Assembly: GCF_963506605.1 (NCBI RefSeq)
Contig: NC_083288.1
Coordinates: 42,966,001 to 43,030,000, forward strand
Direction: 5' to 3'
DNA from: Zootoca vivipara
Taxonomy: Eukaryota
Length of the DNA stretch: 64,000 nt
The first letter of the stretch is position 1. Every line of letters starts with the position of its first letter. Shown piece after piece: positions 11,735 through 59,800 of the stretch. The position numbers and the translations under genes were made by a program. The notes below the pieces were generated by a model. The model worked only from the letters and a program-made list of their open reading frames with translations. It was not told where the DNA came from and searched no databases.

Positions 11735-12636
11735 TTATTTCTTTCTCTTTATTAGCTGTCCTCTGTTGTTCAGCTCAGGCCTCATCATAATGACAAAGCA
11801 TTTGGGGAAAAAGATACAGCTCAGCAGTCCAGCCCCAGAGGCCAAAATGGAGAAGATCTCTACTGCCACCATGTATTTCCCCTTCGTGGTCAGGTAGGTT
11901 GGAACAAAGGATACCCAAACACTGCAGAAAACCAACATGCTGAAGGTGATGAACTTGGCTTCGTTGAAAGCGTCTGGAAGCTTCCTGGCTAGGAAAGCCA
12001 AAGTAAAGCTGACGACAGCTAGCAAACCCATAAAGGCCAGTAGGCAGTAGAAGAAGGTGGCATAGCCTTCATTACATTCCACTATGACCTCACCTGCCAA
12101 TGAGTGCATGTCAAAATCTGGGAAGGGGGGAGCCGATCCCAGCCATGCTGTCGAAATGCCAACTTGAACAAGGGAGCAACAAAGAACAATAGGAGTTGCT
12201 ATCCTTTTCCCCACCCATTTGCTCATCCTGGAACCTGGTTGAGTGGCCAAGAAGGCAAGAAGCACTGTCATGGTTTTGGCCAAGACAGAAGAAACAGCCA
12301 CAGAGAAGGTGATACTGAACGATGTTTGCCTGAGCATGCAAGTCACTTTCCCAGGTTGGCCAATGAACAGCAGTGGGCAGAGGAAACAGAGCAGGAGGGA
12401 GACGAGGAGAATGTAGCTGAGGCTCCGGTTATTGGCTTTGACAATGGGTGTGTCCTGGTGTTTAATGAAAGTTCCCAACACTAAGGAAGTTACCAGGGAA
12501 AAAGAGATGGCAAACAAAGCCATGCTGATCCCCAAAGGTTCTTCGTAAGAGAGGAAGCTTACAACCTTAGGGATGCATTGATTTTGAGCCTTGTTTGGAT
12601 GCTGATCTTCAGGGCACTGGAAACAGGAGTCCGTGT
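11735..12636 (-). CDS. V2R-A exon 6 (end of CRD plus 7TM)
   Basis: ttttcccag|AC; [11 protein letters not shown]...TPIVKANN...[11 protein letters not shown]...stop. Confidence 0.96.
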
Positions 12637-15600
12637 CTGGGAAAAGAAGGAGTTGAAAAGTCTCAGTGACAATTCATGTATTTACATATTTGTAGAAGTG
12701 ACCAGGGAGGGACTTCCCTGGTTGCTACAAGCATAGCTGTAGGGTGACTGGGGATAGGGTGGGGATTCCTGCATTTCCCTGTAAGTGCCAGAAGGTGCTA
12801 GAAGGGAGCAATTACCTTTTGGTGACCTCTGCACAAACTCATGCTTGCTAACTTTATTATTATTATTATTATTATTTTATTTTATTTTAAATAAACTTTA
12901 TTGATTTTCAAAATGTACATTACATAAAAACAAAACAATGTAACATTGATGGATAAATAAAACTTCAATACATATTATAAATTCATTGTCTGAATCTTTA
13001 TTTACCTCCCCCCTCCCCTCCAACACTGTCTCTCCCACTACTTCTCAGCCTTCACTACACTATGCAATAGATTTTCTATTTTCGTCTGCACACTATAACT
13101 ATTTTTTTGGTTTGTTGTTACTTTTGGTCCTACTTGATTCTTTCTTAAACTTTGATTTCATTTCATTTCTTTTTCTTTTCTTTTTCCTCTTTTCTGTCTC
13201 TCATTTATTTGGGCCTTTAATATTCTGGAAAGAGATTGGGCTTTTCCACCTGGCACTTAATATAGTCTATAAACAATTTTCAATTTTTCCACTTTCTTCT
13301 TTCTTTATCCCTTTAACTTCCTCATATTTTATTCATGCTTGCTAACTTGATAGATAACTTGTTAAATCCAGCAGGCTAAGCCCATGCCAGAAGAAACTAT
13401 CCATTTGCCAGTGGTGTGCTTACATTGATTGATTTAGAAAATCCATATGGAAAGAAATCTCAAAGTGGTTTACATGAAATATAATCGGGATGAGGAGGAA
13501 TCAAGTCATATTAAAATACAACAACAAGGTAATCGAAAATTTCTTGTATGCTGGCCATCCTCATATTCTTTTGAATTCTTTCTGTGAAGGCCAGACAGAT
13601 TCTCAAATGGGAAAGAATGGGTTCCAAAGCACCCAAGAAATGTTCTCCACTGTCATCATCTATCGTGATGAGACCTACCCATCTCCACCCAAAATGCAAA
13701 AGCAGGTGGGCAATTCCTCGATATTGAAGTGCTTCATTGGGAACCATGTGGTAAAAGGAAGGAAAATGAGATTCACCAACAACAATCTAATAAAACTTCT
13801 TAAATGAAAACATAAAGCAAATATTTACCTTAGATTTTTTTAAAAATAGTTTGAAAAGAAGGAATCTGACTCCAGGAAAGCATATGTAAGCATATATGCT
13901 TTTAAAGAGGCATTTAAAGCTGGTTACTGTAGGTGCCTCTCAAAAAATCACCCAGGGGAGGATACAAGGGTGGGTGCTACCACCAAGAAAGTCCACTTCT
14001 GTGTTGCCACCAAGCAGAGCTGGCAGGGTGAGGGTGCTGCATCTGGTGGTAGAAGATCCCCAGGTGGCACTTTTATGCCTTTGCTAGCAGCGGAAAAGCG
14101 CCATCGCCATTGGTGCTGATTTGGGGCCAGATTGCATCTACTTGGGGTGAGATCTAATGCAAACTGGTGCTGCCTGGAAGGGCACACAGTAGCAGTAGAG
14201 CGGGCATTGTTGGCAGCACTTCCCTCTTCACCTCTAGTGGCAAAAGAGGACACTAAGCCCCACCCACCAAGCTGATTGTGGAATAGCCAGCCATGGTTTC
14301 CTTGGAAGATCTTAAGACTGAACTTGGTCTGCACTGCCCCTTGAGGTGTTGCTGGACTACAACACCCCTCACCCCTGACCATTGGCTGTGCTGCCTGGGC
14401 CAGATGGGAGTTGGAGTCCAGGAGAATCTAGAGGGCCACAGGTCCCCCATCCCTGCCTTAAAAAAGGTAAAGGTACCCCTGACTGTTAGGTCCAATCGCG
14501 GACGGCTCTGGGGTTACGACGCTCATCTCGCTCTATAGGCCGAGGAGCCGGTGTTTGTCCGCAGACAGCTTCCGGGTCATGTGGCCAGCATGACTAAGCT
14601 GCTTCTGGAGAACCAGAGCAGCACACGGAAACGCCGGTTACCTTCCCACTGTAGCGGTCCCTATTTATCTACTTGCACTTTGACCTGCTTTCAAACTGCT
14701 AGGTGGGCAGGAGCTGGGACCAAACAGCGGGAGCTCACCCCGTCGCAGGGAGTCGAACCGCCATCCTCCTGATCGGCAAGCCCTAGGCTCTGTGGCTTAG
14801 ACCACATGTCTTCTCACAATGATGGTTATGATTTGACAGGCTGGAGTTCTGGGGTTGAGGAATGGTGGCTCCCTCTATGCAGATGTGAGATTTGAGTGCC
14901 TCTCAGTTTTCCGGACATCTTTGGTTCTCACTTTTCATTTGCTTAAGAATACTGTGTTCTTTGTCACTTACCCTCCAGAGCTGAAATTTCCCCTTCTTCG
15001 CATGGAGAACAGTCGTAGCAGCAAGATGGTGCACCTTCCTTTGTGATCTTCTGATAACCAGGCTGGCAGCAGTCATTGCACACAGAGACGGGGGGCAGCT
15101 GTCCATAAACAACAGAAAACTGAGGAAAATGGTATTTTGTTTTCAAGCTGGCATACAGTTGTGTTTTTTAAACAACAACCACAACCACAATGTATTTTTA
15201 TTAAAGATTTTTTTGTTTACAGAAGTATTTGCAATGTCTCTTTTTTCAAGTTACATTTTCTACAGATCAGTTTCATTTGTTGAGACATTAGTGGTACATT
15301 AGGAAGAAAGGAGGGAAAGAGGTGGAGGGGGGAATGGTGGGTGGGGTGGGGTGGCAATGCTTCTATTCAGCTTAGTGTATGTGTGGGGTTTTGTATCAGC
15401 ATCGCTTGTGTAGGTTCTGTTTACTATTCACTTGTATTCCTTTGGTGGTGAGAGAGGTCAATGGCAGGTCAAATGGTTATTTCTCAAATGGGACAGTGTG
15501 ACTGTCCATCTGTCCATCAAATTTGGGTGCGACTGTCCACCTGTCAATCACCTAACATCATAGCGATATCAGATGCTGATGCTGTTTGTCAGGACTATGA

Positions 15601-18600
15601 AGTACAACACAGGAATGTTTGAAACCCTTTTGCAAGCAGCCTCACCCTGCTCTTTTAAACCTCCTAATTCTTATTTCTAATTGTTATTACCTTGTTGTTC
15701 TCTTCATGATCATCATTGCTAGTTGCCACCACAACTGCTTAATTTTTTTAAAAAAATTATTTACCTGGCAAAGGATGAATACATGCTTCATTTCACCCAC
15801 TTTAAATCTGTTGTCCACCCATTTTACGCTGCAATCCTCTACTCACTGACCTGAGAATGAGCCCCGTTGAATTTGGACTTAAACCTGAATAGATACAAAG
15901 ATTGTGCTGCTAGTGCATAACCTTTCTTTTCATATTAGAGAGGGTGTGTCTCTAATTTTCTTACCTTGGTGAATTCTCCATGCCACTGGATTTTTTCCTC
16001 ATGAATGATGAACACTTTCTCTGGAGGAGCCTGAGGATCCAGACTTCCTACTTTGATCCTGACATAGGAGTTATTTGGGAAAGTGACCAAGTTGGTAACA
16101 TCAAAACCAGCTTCTAATTCTCCACATTCATTAAATCTAATTTCATCTCCAGCACTGTTGTTGAATGAGATTCTCTGAAGAAATGAGTGGAGCTTCGCAT
16201 GAAAGAATTGAAGAACCCTTTAAGTCTTGGAATACACTCAGTGATATATCCCCCCCCCCTGATAATTTTGTAACATGGCATGCTAGTCATAGGGATGGGG
16301 GATTCAGTTTAATTTGGATTTTAATGCGAATCTCCCCAAATCACACTTCCTAAAATAACATATAATTCGAAACACAGCTTTTCTTCTAAATTTGCTCTTC
16401 CTTGAATTTTGCAATGCGGTTCCTCCCAAAATGTGTGTACATTAGGGGAAAGTATGTGCAAAAATTAATATATTAGTGTACATTATATACAGAATGCTTC
16501 TGTCAGGGGAAATCATTTGCATGTGTAGACCTTTTAACCACCTCCCCCCCCCCCAAATAAATTCAGATAAGACTCAAATTTTTGGTTTGGTTTTTGGCAG
16601 AATTTAAGCCACAACTTTGTTGATTACAATCAAGTGAGTGTTTGTGTAGGCTCTGGTTCAACTAGCTCCCTGCACCCTTGCAGGCAGCGCTGACCCTGGG
16701 CACCAACCATAGGTCAGCCTCTGGTGAACACCTGGGACAATGGCAAGCAGGACCCTGCTAGACCTCCACCCAGATGTCACCTGGACTCTGGCTCCAGGCA
16801 CAACCCCTCACAGGGAAGACCAACCAATGAGTCCGTGGATTCCTTTAGTGGAATACCCATTGCATAGGGATGGCCAGAGCGCTCTGCCACTCCTATCACC
16901 TGAACCAGAGCCTATCCGCAACCTTACAAGTTGTGACGATTTGCTACGTGGCAGGAGAAACCGAAATGGCACCAGCCAATCAGCCAAGTGGGGAAAATTC
17001 CTGCTGTGCCCCTGTCCCAATGACAGGCAACACACGATGACATAGCAAAGTCAAGCGCGCAAGCCCTAAATATAGGGAGAGGTGAGCGGGTGTTCCGATG
17101 CACAGAGCCCAAAAGAGAAAGCTCAGCGACACATGCATGGGCTTATATAAAGGTCCCTCGATCGATTTAACTGGCATCTCATTGGTCAGATTGCACCCAG
17201 GATTGAACGACCTCCAATAGGGTGTGGTGGCCATCCAAATGTTCCCACCCACAACACAGGGTCTGGTTGCCAGGTCGCACCACAACACATGCCCTCTTTA
17301 AGGGAGGACCCGATCTGCAAAAAAAAAATAATAGGGGGGGGGGATGCATGCTAAAATGCGGGTGAACTTTCATGAAGACTTTTTTATTATTGCAAACTGA
17401 TGGTGAATGGAACTTAAGATTGGAAAAATGTGTATCTGAGAAAAGGTGAAATTGATGGATTCTCCCATCCCTAAGCAGAACTTTTCACACCATACCACAT
17501 GACATACAGGGACACTGGGGAGACATTACCTTCCAGGGTTCCATATTTAGATGTGTCAGGCTACCTTCATATTTCATTGCTCTGTGACTGGATCTAGATC
17601 TGTACATATTATGTATGGCATGTGCCAGGGCATAAACTGCATTGTAGATACTGTAGCTGTGGCCCGTCATGCTCATTTCAAAATAAGGTGCAGGGAGATT
17701 CTCCAGACTCTCTTCTCCGGTACATGTGCCAATGATGTTTGGTGGCTTAATGGCATTTGAAACAGAGCAAATAAATGCTTGTTCCCATAAATTCTTGATA
17801 AAACCATTTCCGTTTGCATAATAAGGGTTTGCACCCTGAACAAATTCTTGGAAGCCTTGAAGTTCCATCGAGTGAATTGTGAAGGAGATCGAACCGTCGA
17901 ACATTCGCATATCAATAACCCTTTGGAAAGGATCAAATGTGAAATCGATTTGGGCTGTTGTAATCCACACCTTTCCTGCACAATACTTCTCTACAGAACC
18001 AAGAAGTATTAGAGGAATCAACTCCATTGTCACCCACACAATAGCTGCCACCCCCCGCAGGGTTGCAGATTCTCCATATACAATAATAACATTGGCTTTG
18101 CTTTTCATGAAAAGTGGGATATCATTAAGAAGGTAATCGAAAATTTCTTGTATGCTGGCCATCCTCATATTCTTTTGAATTCTTTCTGTGAAGGCCAGAC
18201 AGATTCTCAAATGGGAAAGAACGGGTTCCAAAGCACCCAAGAAATGTTCTCCACTGTCATCATCTATCGTGATGAGACCTACCCATCTCCACCCAAAATG
18301 CAAAAGCAGGTGGGCAATTCCTCGATATTGAAGTGCTTCATTGGGAACCATGTGGTAAAAGGAAGGAAAATGAGATTCGCCACTCACTCCTGGTTCAAAT
18401 GAGCCATATGACAGCTGGGCAGAGTGGGCAGAAATTTCAGAGGTGAAATAGAAGAAGCACCTCATCACATATTATACTTTTGATTATTTATTTACTCTTA
18501 TTACTCTGTTTTTTTAAAACAGAGCTGCAAAATGACGGCGGAGGCTCTATTTTGACGGTGCCAAGGAAGGAGATATTAGCAGGCTTGGAGAGACTCCAAG

Positions 18601-21258
18601 GTTTACAAAAGAACAAAAACCATCAGGAAAAGACATGTGATGGCGGGAATGAGGAGCTTACCATGTTCTGACTCCCACATTGTTCCAGGAGTTGCAGAGC
18701 AGAAAGCATAAAACACTGGAATTATTATTATCCCTTATCTGTACTCTTGAGTAAGCATGCATACTGCAGCCTAAGTGAATATCAGGGCAGCAAATTTCAC
18801 TTTGCCATGAACCTCTGTCAGATAAAGCAGGCAAGACAGTTTTCTGGGATGAATATGGATATTAAACAGGCACCCTTGAGATCCCCTTTATAAAGAGCCA
18901 TATGCTCAAAGCTCCATTTTGTACCTCTCTGCACATATTTTTTCTCAAACCCCACCCAACATTATTCTTCCTCCTGCTTCTAATTAATGGACATGCCAGC
19001 AGAAAGAAAAGGGAAGGGTGTGAGATAAGAGGAAATCCCCACAGCCCAATGCCCTACCTGGGGAATCTTGTAAAGGCTCAAGACCTTTGCTATGTGTGCG
19101 GTCGTAGCAGAGCTAAGTCCTCCGATGACGCCCACTAGTTTTCTCTGGATGCCACAATTATAGTTCGGGAAGAACTGGAGTGAATTGAAGAGCAGGTCCA
19201 ACGTGGCCCGGTAGATAATCCTTGCAATGGAATTGCTGTCATAGATGTGGAATCCAAGAGTGACATTAAGCAAGATGCTGGGATTTTCATTGATCTCTTC
19301 TACAGCAAAAACCATGGCCAGGATGTGCTGGTAGAACTTTGTCACCACTCTATAAATAAAGCCATTCAAGAATTCACGGAAATGGTTCGTTGTGCCTCTA
19401 AAACACCCTTTGCCAGCCTGATGCCCTCTGGATGTTTTGGACTACAACTCCCATCAGCCTCACATAGTATGGTCAATGGACAAGGGTTGCAGGAGTGGTA
19501 GTCTGGAGGGCACCAGGCTGGGGAAGGCTGTTGTAAGAGATTCAGATGCCTGAACCTAAGGAGGTGATGCAATGTAGGAGCATCATTGAAAATGAGGGAA
19601 AGGGGCATCTCCTGCCCAGTTATGCCCATATAGTTGCATAATGTGTGCCATGCAGTGTGTTTTTGTGCAGTAAGAAACTGTCCTCTCTTTGGGCCAAATC
19701 TTATTTATAGTGGGGTTTGCTTAAAAAATAAATATCCCTGCCTCCTTCTCCTTATTTTGAGATTTGCCAAGGCTGTACCCCTAAACGGGAAGAATCCTAA
19801 AACATGTGTTGGATTCAAAACTCCACTCCCTAACATCTCCAGTCTTAACAGCACTGCAATTTTCTGTTATTGTAAGGCACCTTTTGCTGTTGGGCAGAAA
19901 TATGGGATACGACACTTTCTACTGACTAAATAATCAAAGGAGTGGTTACTGATTTTCCATGCATTATTATTATTTTTTGAAACCCCAACTGGAAATGGGA
20001 TACCCCCAACCTATTGGATCTAGCCTGCTTTGTGGGCAGGGGGAGAAAAATATATATGAATTCCTCAAAACATTCCCCAGAGAACAGTCAGTATAATCCT
20101 TAAGAAAGCTTTTACAAGTAATGGTTCTTAACACCATCAAGCCATGACCATATACAGTATAGCGAGTGATGCCAATAGGAGGTGCAAAGAAGCAAATGCC
20201 AGCTTGTAGCATATTCTGGATGTATCCTAAAATCAGAATTTTTTTTGGGGGGGGGAGGGTGATACAATCACATTAAAGTAATAACAAGTTATATCTTACC
20301 AATGGACCCTGTAACTTTGTTATTTGGATATAATAAAGATCTTGCACTAATAGAAGATTAGGTACTATTACCACATCTTTTGACCGCTATGATCATCTGC
20401 GAGGACCAGAAGAAAATGAGAACATCATCCCCGAGAGAATGGATAACCAAACTTTGGGACACTGTGTTAAGCATACGGATATGGTAAGAACTAGAGGAGG
20501 TAGACACCCAGAGAACAGTTTCATGGAAAAATCTAGTCTTTTAAAAATTTAGTGTCGCGATAAGGTTCAGCACAACGTAAACCCTTTTGCATTGCTCAGA
20601 ACTTCAATGTGCTCTATTTGAATTTGGTATGTAGGTGGCAGCAGAGGTGAGGCAGGCTGGGGAAGTGCTCCCCTCTCCAAACAAACAAACAAACAAACAA
20701 ACAAACAAACAAACAAACAAACAAACAAACAACTCGCCCGCCCAGTTGCCTTGCTCTATTGCTGGGCTACTGTCACTAACACATACTAATATTTTTTTTC
20801 TTTCAGAAATCTTAATATGGGGGGGGACACACACACTCACATACCTAGAAATATACCGTACTTTTCCATGTAAAAGACGAGGTTTTTTTCCCCTCTTTAC
20901 TGTAAAATAATGTTAAAAAAGGGGCTTGTCTTATACACAGATAGTGCATGGAGATGGACGAATGATTGGTTGTGGGTTAGTGATTTTCAGCATGCCCCCC
21001 CAAAAAAACTCAACAACTCTGAGTCAACACCCCCCCCCATTTTCTTAAATTTGTGTTCTCCAAAATAGGAGGCGTATTATACATGGGTGTGTGTTATACA
21101 CAGAAAAATACAGTACTTTTCTGGTCCCACCACTGATTTGGTATGGAATCCTGCTTTTTTATTTCAGTCCTGAATATCTGTTTTCTTCTCTTTTGAGACT
21201 TGTTAATTTATTCATGTTTTTTTATTCCATATCCTTATTTTTAATAATGATAGTAGTA

Positions 21259-30500: not shown

Positions 30501-33500
30501 GTAAGGTCTGGATCATGACAGCTCAGATGGATTTCATTTCCATTCCACTTCAAAGAGATTGGGACATAGACTTCCTCCATGGTGCTATATCCTTTGCCAT
30601 TCACTCCAGTGAGGTTGTAGGATTCCAGAAATTTCTTCAGGTGAGAAACCCCACCTCAGAAAAAGAAGATGGCTTCATTAGGGTCTTCTGGGAACAAGCA
30701 TTTGGGTGTTTGTTCCCCAACTCCATGGTAGACCTACAGGATGAAGAAATCTGCAGTGGAGAGGAGAAGCTGGAGGGTCTTCCTGCGTCTGTTTTTGAAA
30801 TGAGCATGACTGGCCACAGCTACAGTGTCTTCACAGCTGCCTTTGCAGTAGCACATGCATTGCAGGCCATGCATTCAACTAGATACAAAGGCAGAATGGT
30901 AGTAGATGGAGGAGTAAAACTTCAGAATCAAGAGTTATGGAAGGTAATGTCCTGAATATAGTAAGAACAAAGGAAGGGTCCAAAATGTTTCACAAGACCC
31001 CTGGGCAAAGTTCACCATTCGTGAGGATGCCATTTTATGGCCCAGCAGGTGTAACCAGGTTTGACTCCGGACACATTTTTGCAGGCCATTTTGCCAGTCT
31101 TCAAGAAGTGTCATGGAAATACTTCTGTCTCTAGTCCTAAGGCAGGGATGGGGAACCTTCAACCCTCCACATGTTTCTGAACTGCAACACCTATACTCCA
31201 AGCAAGCATAGCCAATACCTGTAGGTCCCACAGCCTACAACTACAATGTCTACATAGAAGTCTATGTGGATGCACACACTTTGCATGTCATGCATTCAAC
31301 TAGCTTTTTTTAAAAAAAAGAATGATAGTGAATGAAGGAGTAAAATTTAAGAATGAACGGTGATGGAAGGTAATGTCCTGAGCAAGCTAAAAGTAGAGTA
31401 GAAATGGTGATGGATAAGTACAAAGGTTTCCCAAGGCAGCCAACTTCTGCTTCTGCCTTCCACCACGTCAGGGTCATAAATGTAGTGGTGGCTATACCAT
31501 TCTGACCTGTTCTGTGGCTGCCCAGTCATTTCCTTCATTAGTACTACTGTTACATTTTATTATTGTAGTTTATTACTCTATCTGTTTATTGTATGTATCT
31601 CTCATCGTTCCTGCCCTAGGGCTCTTTCCCTCTCCATATCTATTCTTACTTGATATAAAGTTTTTAAACAGTTCAGTAAACAAGTGGGAATGATCACCAG
31701 TCTTTTGTATATCCTTATGAATTTGCTTTCTTTTATTTTCTCTCTGATTCTATCCATTTTTTCTCCCTAAACAGCTCAACTACTTTGTTAAAAGCATCTC
31801 ATTTAATAATAGTGGTGGGGGGAAAGTTTCCTTCAACCAAAATGGAGAGTTAGAGTCTGGATTTGATATTATCAACTGGGTCACATTTCCAAACCAGTCC
31901 TTTTGGAGAGTGAAAGTTGGAAAGATCGACCCCATGGCTCCCCAAGAAGAAGCGTTCAGCATTAGTGAAGAAGCCATTGTGTGGCCAAGCAGGTTTAACC
32001 AGGTGAGATTAAATTCATATTTTGTAGCCTATCCATCACTTCTATAATGATTTGCAGTTCAGATACTCACCTAGCTCTGTGCTACATTCATCCATGTGCT
32101 TAGTGTAGGAGTGAGGGCATGGCTGTAGAGATCTTCCATGTTTTGCCAATTAAGTGACATTCATCAAACCCACTGTTGAACTACTACTGCCAAATTTGCT
32201 ATTTGGAAAAAAGTAAAACTTTTTTAAATTTACAGAGGGTCATATTCATGTAGGGCAAGGCAGCATAAGGATTCCCTCTATCACAATGGGGCTTGCTTCT
32301 TTCCTTTCCCTACCCAAATTTGTGAAATATGGCTCTCCGTTCCTTTGGACCACATCAGTGAGGTAGGCAGGGGTGTCTTTTTGTCTGGGTAACCCAGGAG
32401 CTAGACACACACCGCCCAGATTTTGTACTGCTAATGTAGCAGGTCAACTTCTCCCTCAGAGGTGTATTACAATGGATGACAATAACAACAGTTGCCTCCA
32501 ACTGTGGAGAAAGAGCATAGCCATCATGGCAAGTAGCCCTTGATTGCCCTTTCCTACTTGTCTCTTGCTTCTTCCACCATAAAAGGAGATAGTTCAGTAA
32601 GTTAAGAGAATATAATACATTGTGGATACACAATATTGCAAAATAGAAAACATTCTCCTCTTACATTTTTGGACAGGCACAACCCCTTTCTCTTTGTAAT
32701 GCCAATTGTCCTTTGGGTTATCAGAAAACAAAGAAGGAAGGGAAACCATTTTGCTGCTATGATTGCATTGCATGTCCAGAAGGGAAGATTTCTAACCAGA
32801 CAGGTAAGAGACATCATGGATACAGCCTTAAAGATATACTGACACTAAGATGTTCAGACACTCACTTCCCTTGTGATGTTCAGTTGTTCAAAAATTCAGG
32901 AAGGTTTTTCAGAATTCAGTGAAGGTTGTGGTTCCTGATATGGGGGTATAGCCTGATATATTCAATAATTTCAGTCCAAGCCATTGACAGCTGGTAATTA
33001 TATACAATAAATAATAATAAAATAAAATAAAATCAGACGAAGGAGGTATCATAAGTGGGGGTAAAACAGAAACCTTCAGAAACATGGAAGGAATTCAGGA
33101 AAAAGCTAAGGGTGCAACAGCCTCTCTCTCTTAAAACAAGACCCAAGAACCGTGTCTCATAATTCAGAGAAGAGTTAAAACTGAAATACAACTGTCCACA
33201 TATTAGTCTGTAATTGTAAATCGGGTGATAATGGACAAATGTAATATCCAAAAAGGAACAAGACAAGGATGTCCATTGTCACCACTGTTGTTCATTCTGG
33301 TACTGGAAGTGCTTACGAGAAGGGTAGGAGAAGACAGAGAAGTGTCTAGGATAAAAGTTTTTTTTTTAAAAAAAAGAACATAAATTGAAAGCATTTGCAG
33401 ACGATACAGCAATAACAGTGGATGATCCAAAAAACTCTCCCCCATATTGTAGTCTGGAAGATCCAATCGTGTTCGGATGTTAAAAGTTGTGAACACGTAA

Positions 33501-56865: not shown

Positions 56866-59800
56866 GCTCTTCATGAAAATAGCTTATTAAAAAACCCCCT
56901 AAGTGAAATTAAATGCCCATATGTATGTAGAGAAAGGGAATATACAGGAGGTAATTGTTCTGCGTTCACTTAAGGCCATAAGAAGATCCTGCTGTACCAG
57001 GACATTGGCCCATCTCTTCCAGCATCCATTTTCGTCAAAAGAAAATGATGGTGATGTAGTGCTAAATGACTTCTATTACATCCATTACTGGTCTTTATGA
57101 ATCTTTTGAAGGGCCCATTGCTCATATCCCTCAAGCAGGAAGGTTCATCATCATCCTGTTATATTTTCTTATGTAATACCCTTCGTTTCCCATCTTTCCT
57201 CCTGCCCAATTTAGCTTAGCCACCTGGTGAGAAATAGCTTCTTTAATAATTGTGCTGGGGGTGGGGTGGGGAGTTTATTTCAACCAAAATGGTCCACAAG
57301 ACACCTGGGCAAAGTTCAACATTCATGAGGATGCCATTGTATGGCCCAGAAGGTTCAACCAGGTTTGACTCCAGAAACATTTTTGCAGGCCATTTTGCCA
57401 GTCTTCAAGAAGTGTCATGGTAATACTTCTGTCTCTAGTCCTAAGGCTACTTTGGCCACCTCATGAGAAGAGAAGACTCCCTGGAAAAGACCCTGATGTT
57501 GGGAAAAATGGAGGGAACAAGGAGAAGGGGACGACAGAGGACATGATGGTTGGACAGTGTTCTCGAAGCTACCAACATGAGTCTGACCAAACTGCGGGAG
57601 GCAGTGGAAGACAGGAGTGCCTGGCGTGCTCTGGTCCATGGGGTCACACGACTAAACGAATAAACAACAACCAAGTCCTAAGGCAGGGATGGGGAAACTT
57701 CAGCCCTCCAGATGTTTCTGAACTGCAACACCCATATTCCCAGCAAGCATAGCCAATACCTGTAGGTCCCACAGCCTACAACTACAATGTCTACCTAGAA
57801 GTCTATGTGGTTGCACATGCTTTGCAGGCCATGCATCCATCTAGACTCAAAGGCAGAATGACAGTGGATGAAGACATAACATTTCAGAATGAGCAGTTGT
57901 GGACGGTAATGTCCCGAGCATGCTAAAAGTGGAGTAGAAATGGTGATGGATCAGTCCAAAGGTTTCCTAAGGCAACCAACTTGATACCTGTGGGAAGTAC
58001 TCAATCAGGGCATTATGGCAATAGGCCACTCCCAACAGTCTGGTGTTCAGAGGCACAGTGCCTCTTTTTCTGGAGCAAGTATAAAGTCTTTGTGGCTAAC
58101 AGCCATAGATATCCAATTTCTTCCACGACTTTGTCAAATCTCCACTGCTCACCAGATGCAAAGGAATAAAGAGAGAATCTAGATTCTCTGGGAAGTCCAA
58201 AAGGTGATAATGTTAAGCATGGAGCAGGATTTTTTTTCTGCTTCTGCCTTCCACCACATCACAGTTATGAATGTAGTAGTGGCTATACCATTCTGACCTG
58301 TTCCGTGGCTGCCCAGTCATTTCCTTCATTAGTACTACTGTTACATTTTATTATTGTAGTTTATTACTGTATCTGTTTATCGTATGTATCTCTCAATGCT
58401 CCTGCAATAAGCTCAAGGTGGCCTATAGTCCTCTTCCTCTTTCTGTATCCATTCTTCCTTTATATATAGCTTTAAAAAAGTTCAGTAATCAAGTGTGAAT
58501 GATCACCAGCCTTTTGTATATCCTTATGAATTGGCTTTCTTTTATTTTCTTTTATTTTCTACTCATTTTCCTGGAAAAAAAAACTATAACAGCTCAACCA
58601 CTTTGTTAAAAGCATCTCATTTAATAATAGTGGTGGGGGGAAAGTTTCCTTCAACCGAAATGGAGAGTTAGAGTCTGGATTTGATATTATAAACTGGGTT
58701 ACATTTCCAAACCAGTCCTTTCGCAGAGTGAAAGTTGGAAAGATCGACCCCATGGCTCCCCAAGAAGAAGCATTCAGCATTAGTGAAGAAGCCATTGTGT
58801 GGCCCAGCTGGTTTAACCAGGTGAGATAAATTCATATTTTGTAGCCTATCCATCACTTCTGCAATGATTTACACTTCAGATACTGACCTAGCTCTGTGCT
58901 ATGTTCATCCATGTGCTTAATGTAGGACTGAGGGCATGGCTGTAGAGATCTTCCATGTTTTGCCAATTAAGTGACATTCATTAAACCCACTATTGAACTA
59001 CTACTGCCAAATTTGCCATTTGGAAAAAAGTAAAACTTTATAAATTTACAGAGGGTCATATTCATGTAGGGGAAGGCAGCATAAGGATTCCTTCTATCAC
59101 AATGGGGCTTGTTGTTTCCTTTCCCTACCCAAATCTGTAAAATATGGCTCTCCTTTCCCTTGGACCACATCAGTGAGGTAGGCAAGGGTGTCTGTTTGAC
59201 TGGGTAACCCAGGAGCTAGACACACACTGCCCAGGTTTCGAACTGCTAATGCAGCAGTTCAACTTCTCCCCCAGAGGTGTATTACATTGGATGATAATAA
59301 CAACAACAGTTGCCTCCAACTGCGGAGAAAGAGCAAAATCATCATGGAAAGTAGCCATTGATTGCCCCTTCCTATTTGTCTCTTGTCTCTTCCACCCTAA
59401 ATGGAGATAGTTCAGCAAGTTAAAAGAATACAATACGCAATATTGCAAAATAGAAAACATTCTCCTCTTACATTTTTGGACAGGCACAACCCCTTTCTCT
59501 TTGTAATGCCAATTGTCCTTTGGGTTATCAGAAAACAAAGAAGGAAGGGAAACCATTTTGCTGCTATGATTGCATTACATGTCCAGAAGGAAAGATTTCC
59601 AACCAGACAGGTAAGAGCCTTAAAGATATACTGACACTAAGAAATTCAGACACTACTTCCCTTGTGGTGTTCAGTTGTTCAAAAATTCAGGAAAGTTGTT
59701 CAGAATTCAGTGAAGGTTGTGGTTCCTGATATGAGGATATAGCCTGATATTTTGAATAATTTCAGTCCAAGCCATTGACAGCTAGTAATGATGTACACCA

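What the first reader, a model, noticed from the sequence alone, without database searches (positions are those of the whole stretch)
13519..13785. A V2R gene carries a recent copy of its own ligand-binding exon inside intron 5
Seen: 13526..13778 equals 18130..18382 (offset 4604, same orientation, no indels). The only 2 mismatches are both CpG transitions in the copy (ACGG>ATGG, TCGC>TCAC). The insert is bracketed by a 9-bp direct repeat CAACAACAA, with 2-bp microhomology to the donor at each junction, no poly(A) and no exon boundary. Established: microhomology-flanked templated insertions are a signature of double-strand-break repair by template switching (polymerase-theta end joining or synthesis-dependent annealing). 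Inference: a local DNA- or pre-mRNA-templated repair patch of VFT sequence that could act as a gene-conversion donor or cryptic exon.
Basis: partly seen in the sequence, partly recalled or inferred. Interest (0 to 1): 0.7.

Follow-up and report, generated by a model that had tools for sequence, protein, structure and literature searches.

The report
Exon scrap pasted into own intron
A 250-base piece of a lizard scent-receptor gene's main exon sits in a later intron of the same gene, is present in some individuals and absent in others, and is likely a harmless scar left when DNA copying briefly jumped off track.

Summary
Real, young and polymorphic. A 249-bp sense copy of V2R exon 3 lies in intron 5 between two 9-bp repeats; no other donor was found in the assembly. 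Three of 4 sequencing runs show the empty site with one 9-mer, so the repeat is a true target duplication; two samples appear to carry the insert. One 'CpG mismatch' is not decay in the copy: other samples' donor exons match the copy there. No usable splice sites flank it, so a cryptic exon is unlikely. Best mechanism: microhomology template switch on DNA (0.55), with a similar 349-bp event in the same cluster. Rival (0.27): a LINE reverse transcriptase copying the gene's own RNA; the sense 3' end matches the Sauria SINE tail over 7 nt (0.03-0.4% by chance), but the target fits the Bov-B signature poorly. It was the only such exon insert among about 95 V2R genes. The scan noted similar own-exon scars in other genomes. 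Ordinary class, low interest.

The parts
13519..13527 (.). Target-site duplication, copy at the sense 3' junction; last 2 nt (AA) shared with donor, 6 of 9 nt match the donor flank 18123-18131
   Evidence: single copy in empty allele
13528..13776 (-). Inserted 249-bp piece of exon 3 (253 bp with junction microhomologies, 13526-13778), sense to the gene, frame open, encodes part of the ANF_receptor domain, no flanking splice sites
13777..13785 (.). Target-site duplication, copy at the sense 5' junction; first 2 nt (CA) shared with donor
13526..13532 (-). Sense 3' end TTACCTT, identical over 7 nt to the Sauria SINE tail repeat
13792..13795 (-). T run at -10..-7 before the duplication (sense); Bov-B/SINE sites here have it at -12..-9
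18130..18382 (-). Donor segment inside exon 3; assembly letter at 18222 differs from the allele seen in other samples
17530..18414 (-). V2R exon 3 (ligand-binding domain)
19058..19348 (-). V2R exon 2 (approximate coding limits)
15965..16192 (-). V2R exon 4 (approximate)
14970..15098 (-). V2R exon 5 (NCD3G)
11738..12637 (-). V2R exon 6 (7tm_3)

Best explanation
The insert is a young, polymorphic 249-bp copy of this gene's exon 3 lying in intron 5 between two copies of a 9-bp target, and it was likely made by a DNA polymerase that jumped by microhomology to the exon 4.6 kb away and back, leaving a likely neutral scar. Inferred steps: a 3' end ending in CAACAACAA (a stalled nascent strand or one overhang of a staggered break) annealed to exon 3 through a 6-of-9 match ending in AA, copied about 250 nt, then re-annealed through CA at the first unit of the same CAA repeat, so the 9-mer was copied twice. 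Shown: structure, uniqueness of the donor, empty allele, polymorphism. Inferred: enzyme, template and neutrality.
For: Template is 4.6 kb away in the same gene; in human complex variants local templates within 10 kb (871) far outnumber distal ones (41, of which 17 RNA) (PMC4617611, passage; that count is for deletions with insertions). Same-topology event in this cluster that cannot be target-primed reverse transcription: a 1,875-bp duplication with a 349-bp piece of the gene's own intron at its junction, template 3.56 kb away, 99.7% identical (not checked with reads). Microhomology at both junctions; the left match (6 of 9, terminal AA) occurs at 1.05% of gene positions. Breaks with 3' overhangs give short tandem duplications by end joining (PMC8355091, passages). 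Target lacks the TA seen at 32 of 43 Bov-B/SINE sites; it scores no higher than 7 of 43 real sites' range bottom and 17.6% of background scores as well. No likeness to the Bov-B/SINE 3' region beyond the tail (137 of 161 and 141 of 161 exon-3 windows score as well). No spliced V2R copy among about 95 genes in 1.66 Mb. snRNA retrocopies here are dispersed far from their genes.
Against: A clean 9-bp duplication without target loss is what LINE endonucleases make (8-14 bp here) and is absent from class-2 repair patches (PMC5110952). The sense 3' end matches the Sauria SINE tail over 7 nt: 1 of 865 exon-3 positions, 56 of 165,317 V2R exon positions, 0.4% if five tail units and both strands are allowed; the DNA model must call this chance. 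Sense orientation with the template upstream in transcription is exactly what a nascent transcript would give. Bov-B is intact and young here (open frames of 1036-1069 aa in 3 of 5 long copies).
Confidence: 0.55

Rival explanations
1. Target-primed reverse transcription by a LINE (most likely Bov-B, else an L1-type element) on the gene's own pre-mRNA: the endonuclease made a staggered cut in intron 5, the freed end primed inside the transcript where it reads like a Sauria SINE tail, and 250 nt were copied (a tailless retrocopy landing in its own gene).
For: 9-bp duplication in the local LINE range; duplication starts with T as at 16 of 21 SINE sites; T run upstream fits well with a 1-nt shift (26 of 43 real sites score no higher, 6% of background). 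7-nt SINE-tail match. Stronger pairing at the sense 3' junction, as in tailless retrocopies (PMC5322556, passages). Bov-B machinery does copy non-cognate RNA here: 3 snRNA-Sauria SINE chimeras among 60 snRNA loci fetched. Tailless U2 copies whose duplication overlaps the RNA end: 2 of 22 non-gene U2 loci.
Against: No TA at the cut; after the 1-nt shift the cut reads TG, seen at 0 of 35 T-starting sites. All 3 chimeras still start on a true SINE tail; by eye no stand-alone snRNA copy had the Bov-B signature. No L1-type TT/AAAA target. Tailless copies were tied to L1, not RTE, in PMC5322556 (passage). Landing 4.6 kb from the source needs tethering to a nascent transcript, and germline transcription of this gene is not shown. 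The tail match was noticed after the fact and 2 of its 7 letters are the junction microhomology.
Confidence: 0.27
2. Hybrid: a LINE or Penelope endonuclease made the staggered cut, retrotransposition aborted, and host repair filled the break by copying nearby DNA.
For: Explains both the duplication length and the local template; L1-made breaks in human cells gave 3 insertions with sequence templated from nearby DNA (PMC11702581, passage).
Against: Target fits the measured Bov-B site poorly; in the cited cases retro-sequence was also present; Penelope site preference was not tested.
Confidence: 0.12
3. Assembly artefact, or a copy from an unassembled near-identical paralog.
For: Only short-read contigs were laid; the X4 junction contigs carry 28 insert letters, just short of the tool's 31-letter bridging rule; sample S1 may be the assembly's source.
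Against: The empty allele has the exact single 9-mer in 3 of 4 runs; X4 (another study) has contigs chained with 30-nt overlaps at exactly 13526 and 13778; X2 depth is 16.4 inside against 10.1 in the flank and 5 at the joint, i.e. three copies. No paralog above 81%.
Confidence: 0.03

Closest known systems
Locally templated insertions at structural-variant junctions (template switching, FoSTeS/MMBIR type; PMC4617611, passages)
   Same: Short insert copied from within 10 kb, microhomology at template boundaries, polymorphic in the population.
   Different: No deletion at the site; a 9-bp duplication instead.
Templated sequence insertion polymorphisms, classes 1 and 2 (PMC5110952, passages)
   Same: Polymorphic insert of unique genomic sequence, donor intact; duplication of at least 5 bp as in class 1; microhomology and no poly(A) as in class 2.
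   Different: Donor is local, not distant; no poly(A), polyadenylation signal or TTTT/A target (not class 1); has a duplication (not class 2).
Tailless retropseudogenes (PMC5322556, passages)
   Same: No tail, flanked by an 8-35 nt duplication, partial complementarity between target and RNA at the 3' end; reported in anole lizard.
   Different: Target is not TT/WAAAA; source is a chemoreceptor exon rather than an abundant RNA; copy lies in its own gene.
Bov-B LINE / Sauria SINE insertions with the Tn-TA signature (PMC13295347, abstract, passages, sections 3.3 and 4.1)
   Same: Duplication length, first letter T, T run upstream, 3' end reading like the (ACCTTT)n tail.
   Different: No TA at the cut, T run 1-2 nt too close, no Bov-B 3' region in the insert.

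Membership tests
Locally templated insertion (template switch) | Template within 10 kb, intact donor | tested here: met
   4604 bp, donor exon intact
Locally templated insertion (template switch) | Microhomology at both template boundaries | tested here: met
   AA and CA; left extended 6 of 9
Locally templated insertion (template switch) | DNA rather than RNA template; polymerase identity | not testable with these tools
   Fragment lies within one exon, so splicing cannot tell
TSIP class 1 | Target duplication of at least 5 bp | tested here: met
   9 bp, single in empty allele
TSIP class 1 | Poly(A) tail after a polyadenylation signal; TTTT/A target | tested here: not met
   Neither at either end
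TSIP class 2 | No target duplication | tested here: not met
   9-bp duplication present
TSIP class 2 | Microhomology, no poly(A), polymorphic | tested here: met
Bov-B/Sauria SINE-type insertion (Tn-TA) | Duplication of 8-14 bp | tested here: met
   9 bp against 43 local sites, which were selected at 8 bp or more
Bov-B/Sauria SINE-type insertion (Tn-TA) | TA at the cleavage site | tested here: not met
   TT (or TG after a shift); TA at 32 of 43 real sites
Bov-B/Sauria SINE-type insertion (Tn-TA) | T run one helical turn upstream | tested here: inconclusive
   TTTT at -10..-7 against -12..-9; fits only with a 1-nt shift
Bov-B/Sauria SINE-type insertion (Tn-TA) | 3' region shared with Bov-B | tested here: not met
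   Local alignment no better than other exon-3 windows
Bov-B/Sauria SINE-type insertion (Tn-TA) | 3' tail repeat (ACCTTT)n | tested here: inconclusive
   7-nt templated match, not a repeat
Tailless retropseudogene (L1) | TT/WAAAA target | tested here: not met
   Target reads A/TTGTT (sense) or A/CAACA (antisense)
Tailless retropseudogene (L1) | Germline-expressed source RNA | not tested
   No RNA run was laid
Cryptic exon | Usable acceptor and donor bracketing the piece | tested here: not met
   Best 3.0 and 1.5 against real 5th percentiles 5.3 and 5.8; no RNA data

The most novel reading that the evidence does not exclude
Bov-B reverse transcriptase primed on the host gene's own nascent pre-mRNA at a chance mimic of the Sauria SINE tail and wrote the piece back into the same gene: a cis, co-transcriptional tailless retrocopy by an RTE-clade LINE. 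It would show that the SINE tail motif alone can recruit priming, and that V2R genes are transcribed in the lizard germline.
Probability: 0.2. Interest if true: 0.65.

Novelty: new member of a known kind. Interest (0 to 1): 0.3.

Why it matters
As it most likely stands it is a neutral presence/absence marker and a clean snapshot of how receptor-gene clusters pick up local scraps. It also creates two 253-bp direct repeats 4.6 kb apart, so unequal recombination would delete or duplicate the end of exon 3 with exons 4 and 5 (inference, untested). If the Bov-B reading held, it would bear on an open point in PMC13295347 (section 4.1), the function of the microsatellite-like 3' tails of RTE LINEs and SINEs, and give a simple test substrate.

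Tried and rejected
Cryptic exon: rejected on splice scores; expression itself is untested, no RNA holder was listed and no RNA run was laid. Distant-paralog donor: none above 81%. Repeat as a split microsatellite rather than a duplication: rejected, empty allele has one 9-mer. Bov-B priming through its own (CAA)n tail on the plus strand: the antisense registers score no better (16-39% of background). Recurrent class in V2R genes: of 899 low-copy segments 8 had a flanking repeat of 7 bp or more; besides this insert one was a Bov-B fragment and the 6 inspected were two LTR-like, two inverted-repeat elements and two paralogous flanks. Other orphan exon fragments inspected (4) had no duplication. 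A paper recalled for a 2-6 kb template distance was not held and is not used. Searches for Bov-B mRNA retrocopies in squamates (7 papers holding at least 4 of 5 terms, listing only) and the words 'retrocop' and 'pseudogene' in the main text of PMC13295347 (0 hits) showed no report; supplements were not read.

Full report
Observation. The window holds four class C GPCR genes of V2R layout; the first lies on the minus strand with exons 2-6 at about 19058-19348, 17530-18414, 15965-16192, 14970-15098 and 11738-12637. Bases 13526-13778 equal 18130-18382 with two mismatches and no indels, and the 9-mer CAACAACAA brackets the copy. The copy is sense to the gene, in intron 5, from inside exon 3. In the 1.44-Gb assembly the next-best match is 81% or less (40 of 99 candidates scored). 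Sauria SINE and Bov-B with (CAA)n tails mark the host as a squamate lizard (PMC13295347).

Population evidence. Four runs were laid as short-read contigs on 12900-14330 (4 samples, 3 studies, out of 24 runs listed). A joint skipping 258 bases with 9 letters fitting either side appears in X2 (depth 5), X3 (24.6) and X8 (60.6): the empty allele with one 9-mer. X2 looks heterozygous (flank 10.1, joint 5, interior 16.4, contigs break at the junctions) but may be the assembly's source. X4, from another study, has contigs 13397-13555, 13526-13778 and 13749-13902, chained by 30-nt overlaps at the exact ends of the repeat, and no empty joint; they carry 28 insert-only letters, short of the tool's 31-letter bridging rule, at depth 4-8. 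X8 and X3 appear to lack the insert (flank and donor contigs unbroken at the left junction), though an X3 contig break at 13777 is unexplained. So 2 of 4 samples appear to carry it. In X4 the right flank carries three variants (13813, 13821, 13841) shared with the empty X8 haplotype and not with the assembly; contigs cannot phase this firmly.

The mismatches. At 13618 the donor contigs of X3 and X8, and the merged contig of X2, match the copy, and X4's three T>C places all lie elsewhere; paralogs have T in 35 of 54 alignments. The assembly's donor is the outlier. At 13775 the X4 graph suggests copy and donor are identical, but the row was hidden. The copy is therefore 0-1 changes from its donor allele.

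Function. Splice matrices from 316 donors and 351 acceptors of V2R exons give the insert's best acceptor 3.0 and best closing donor 1.5, below the 5th percentiles of real sites (5.3, 5.8). A near-identical copy cannot diversify the exon by conversion. It is a possible substrate for unequal recombination (inference). No RNA was examined.

Test of a Bov-B origin. PMC13295347 (abstract, passages, sections 3.3 and 4.1) describes a T run about 10 nt upstream, TA at the cut, and SINE tails of (ACCTTT)n. In 1.66 Mb (window plus 1.6 Mb of the cluster) I found 79 SINE and 64 Bov-B copies with complete 3' ends; 25 and 29 had a duplication and a clean tail; 43 remained after dropping those under 8 bp and three sites (microsatellite, tandem repeat, paralogous duplicate). 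These show Ts at -12..-9 and TA at 32 of 43. The insert's site has TTTT at -10..-7 and TT; only 7 of 43 real sites score as low and 17.6% of background scores as high. With a 1-nt shift the T run fits but the cut reads TG (0 of 35). The insert has no likeness to the Bov-B/SINE 3' region. Against this, its sense 3' end matches the SINE tail over 7 nt, which 1 of 865 exon-3 positions and 56 of 165,317 V2R exon positions do, or 0.4% with five tail units (three of them recalled) on both strands; allowing for three possible end points, about 0.1-1%. Bov-B is young and intact here. Among 30 of 43 U2 and 30 of 48 U6 loci fetched, three are snRNA-SINE chimeras, two are tailless U2 copies with overlapping duplications, and many have A tails: LINE copying of host RNA happens here, but dispersed, and Bov-B cases start on a true SINE tail. 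PMC5322556 (passages) ties tailless copies to L1 and reports them in anole.

Test of a DNA template switch. Both junctions have microhomology; the left is a 6-of-9 match ending in AA (1.05% of gene positions), the right only CA (7.8%). A search for isolated local near-identical pairs gave 12, including LTR pairs, this insert, and a 349-bp intron-2 piece at the junction of a 1,875-bp duplication in another V2R gene. That event has the same topology (jump back, copy, land short of the departure point) with a 1.9-kb instead of 9-bp overlap, and cannot be target-primed reverse transcription; it was not read-checked. Local templates dominate complex human variants (PMC4617611, passage), and staggered breaks yield short duplications (PMC8355091, passages). 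No spliced V2R copy was seen among about 95 genes (94 exon-3 and 98 exon-2 full hits; smallest inter-exon gap 105 nt), and this was the only V2R exon piece with a flanking duplication among 899 low-copy segments.

Weighing. Geometry cannot separate the models: both use two 3' ends 9 nt apart. Locality, the poor endonuclease motif, the in-cluster precedent and the lack of shown germline transcription favour DNA (0.55). The duplication length, sense orientation and tail match keep LINE copying of the gene's own RNA alive (0.27), with a hybrid at 0.12. These odds are judgement, not computed. RNA-templated repair in human cells is in print (PMC12065846, search listing only); local DNA-templated additions at L1 breaks also (PMC11702581, passage). 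Two further preprints (2025.04.01.646716, 2025.02.02.635956; passages) gave no evidence on V2R germline expression or on cis retrocopying.

Novelty. It falls between the two published TSIP classes (PMC5110952, passages) but within known templated insertions. Earlier scan notes record own-exon scraps in introns in other genomes, one with a duplication (unchecked); none matched this sequence. Verdict: real, young, probably neutral; new member of a known kind; interest 0.3.

Noticed in passing
G000:C13:43354507-43360287 (L026-L027): V2R gene with a 1,875-bp tandem duplication (end of exon 3 to intron 5, 99.95%) and a 349-bp piece of its own intron 2 at the junction; a template-switch scar or an assembly artefact.
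   Followed up: partly
window 31237-31381 and 57778-57917: Old fragment of the end of exon 3 with its splice donor in intron 3 of the second and fourth V2R genes (74-77% to 30816-30955); shared, so older than their duplication; no flanking repeat.
   Followed up: partly
G000:C13:43984009-43984174 and 43372229-43372443: Orphan exon-6 fragments without flanking repeats: 166 bp, 96% to the next gene's exon 6 13.7 kb away; 215 bp, 94% to its own exon 6 450 bp away.
   Followed up: partly
L189, L211, L219 (around base 1500-2000): U2- and U6-Sauria SINE chimeric retrocopies with target duplications, showing Bov-B machinery switching onto snRNA; L211 has an unusually long duplication of over 30 bp.
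   Followed up: partly
L191 (around base 1500-1800): A U2 copy directly followed by a U6-like start: possible U2-U6 chimeric retrocopy.
   Followed up: no
G000:C13:43956364-43959582, 46674908-46678126, 43092593-43095811: Full-length Bov-B copies, 98-99% alike, with open frames of 1036-1069 aa inside the V2R cluster.
   Followed up: partly
G000:C13:43319412-43326192 and 44881814-44887355: LTR pairs 99.5% and 100% identical: young LTR elements in the cluster.
   Followed up: no
window 13813-13841: In run X4 the filled allele seems to sit on a right-flank haplotype otherwise seen with the empty allele of X8, unlike the assembly; recombination close to the insert or a contig chimera.
   Followed up: no
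window 16192-16200, minus strand: Exon 4 appears to use an AAG acceptor with a weak pyrimidine tract.
   Followed up: no
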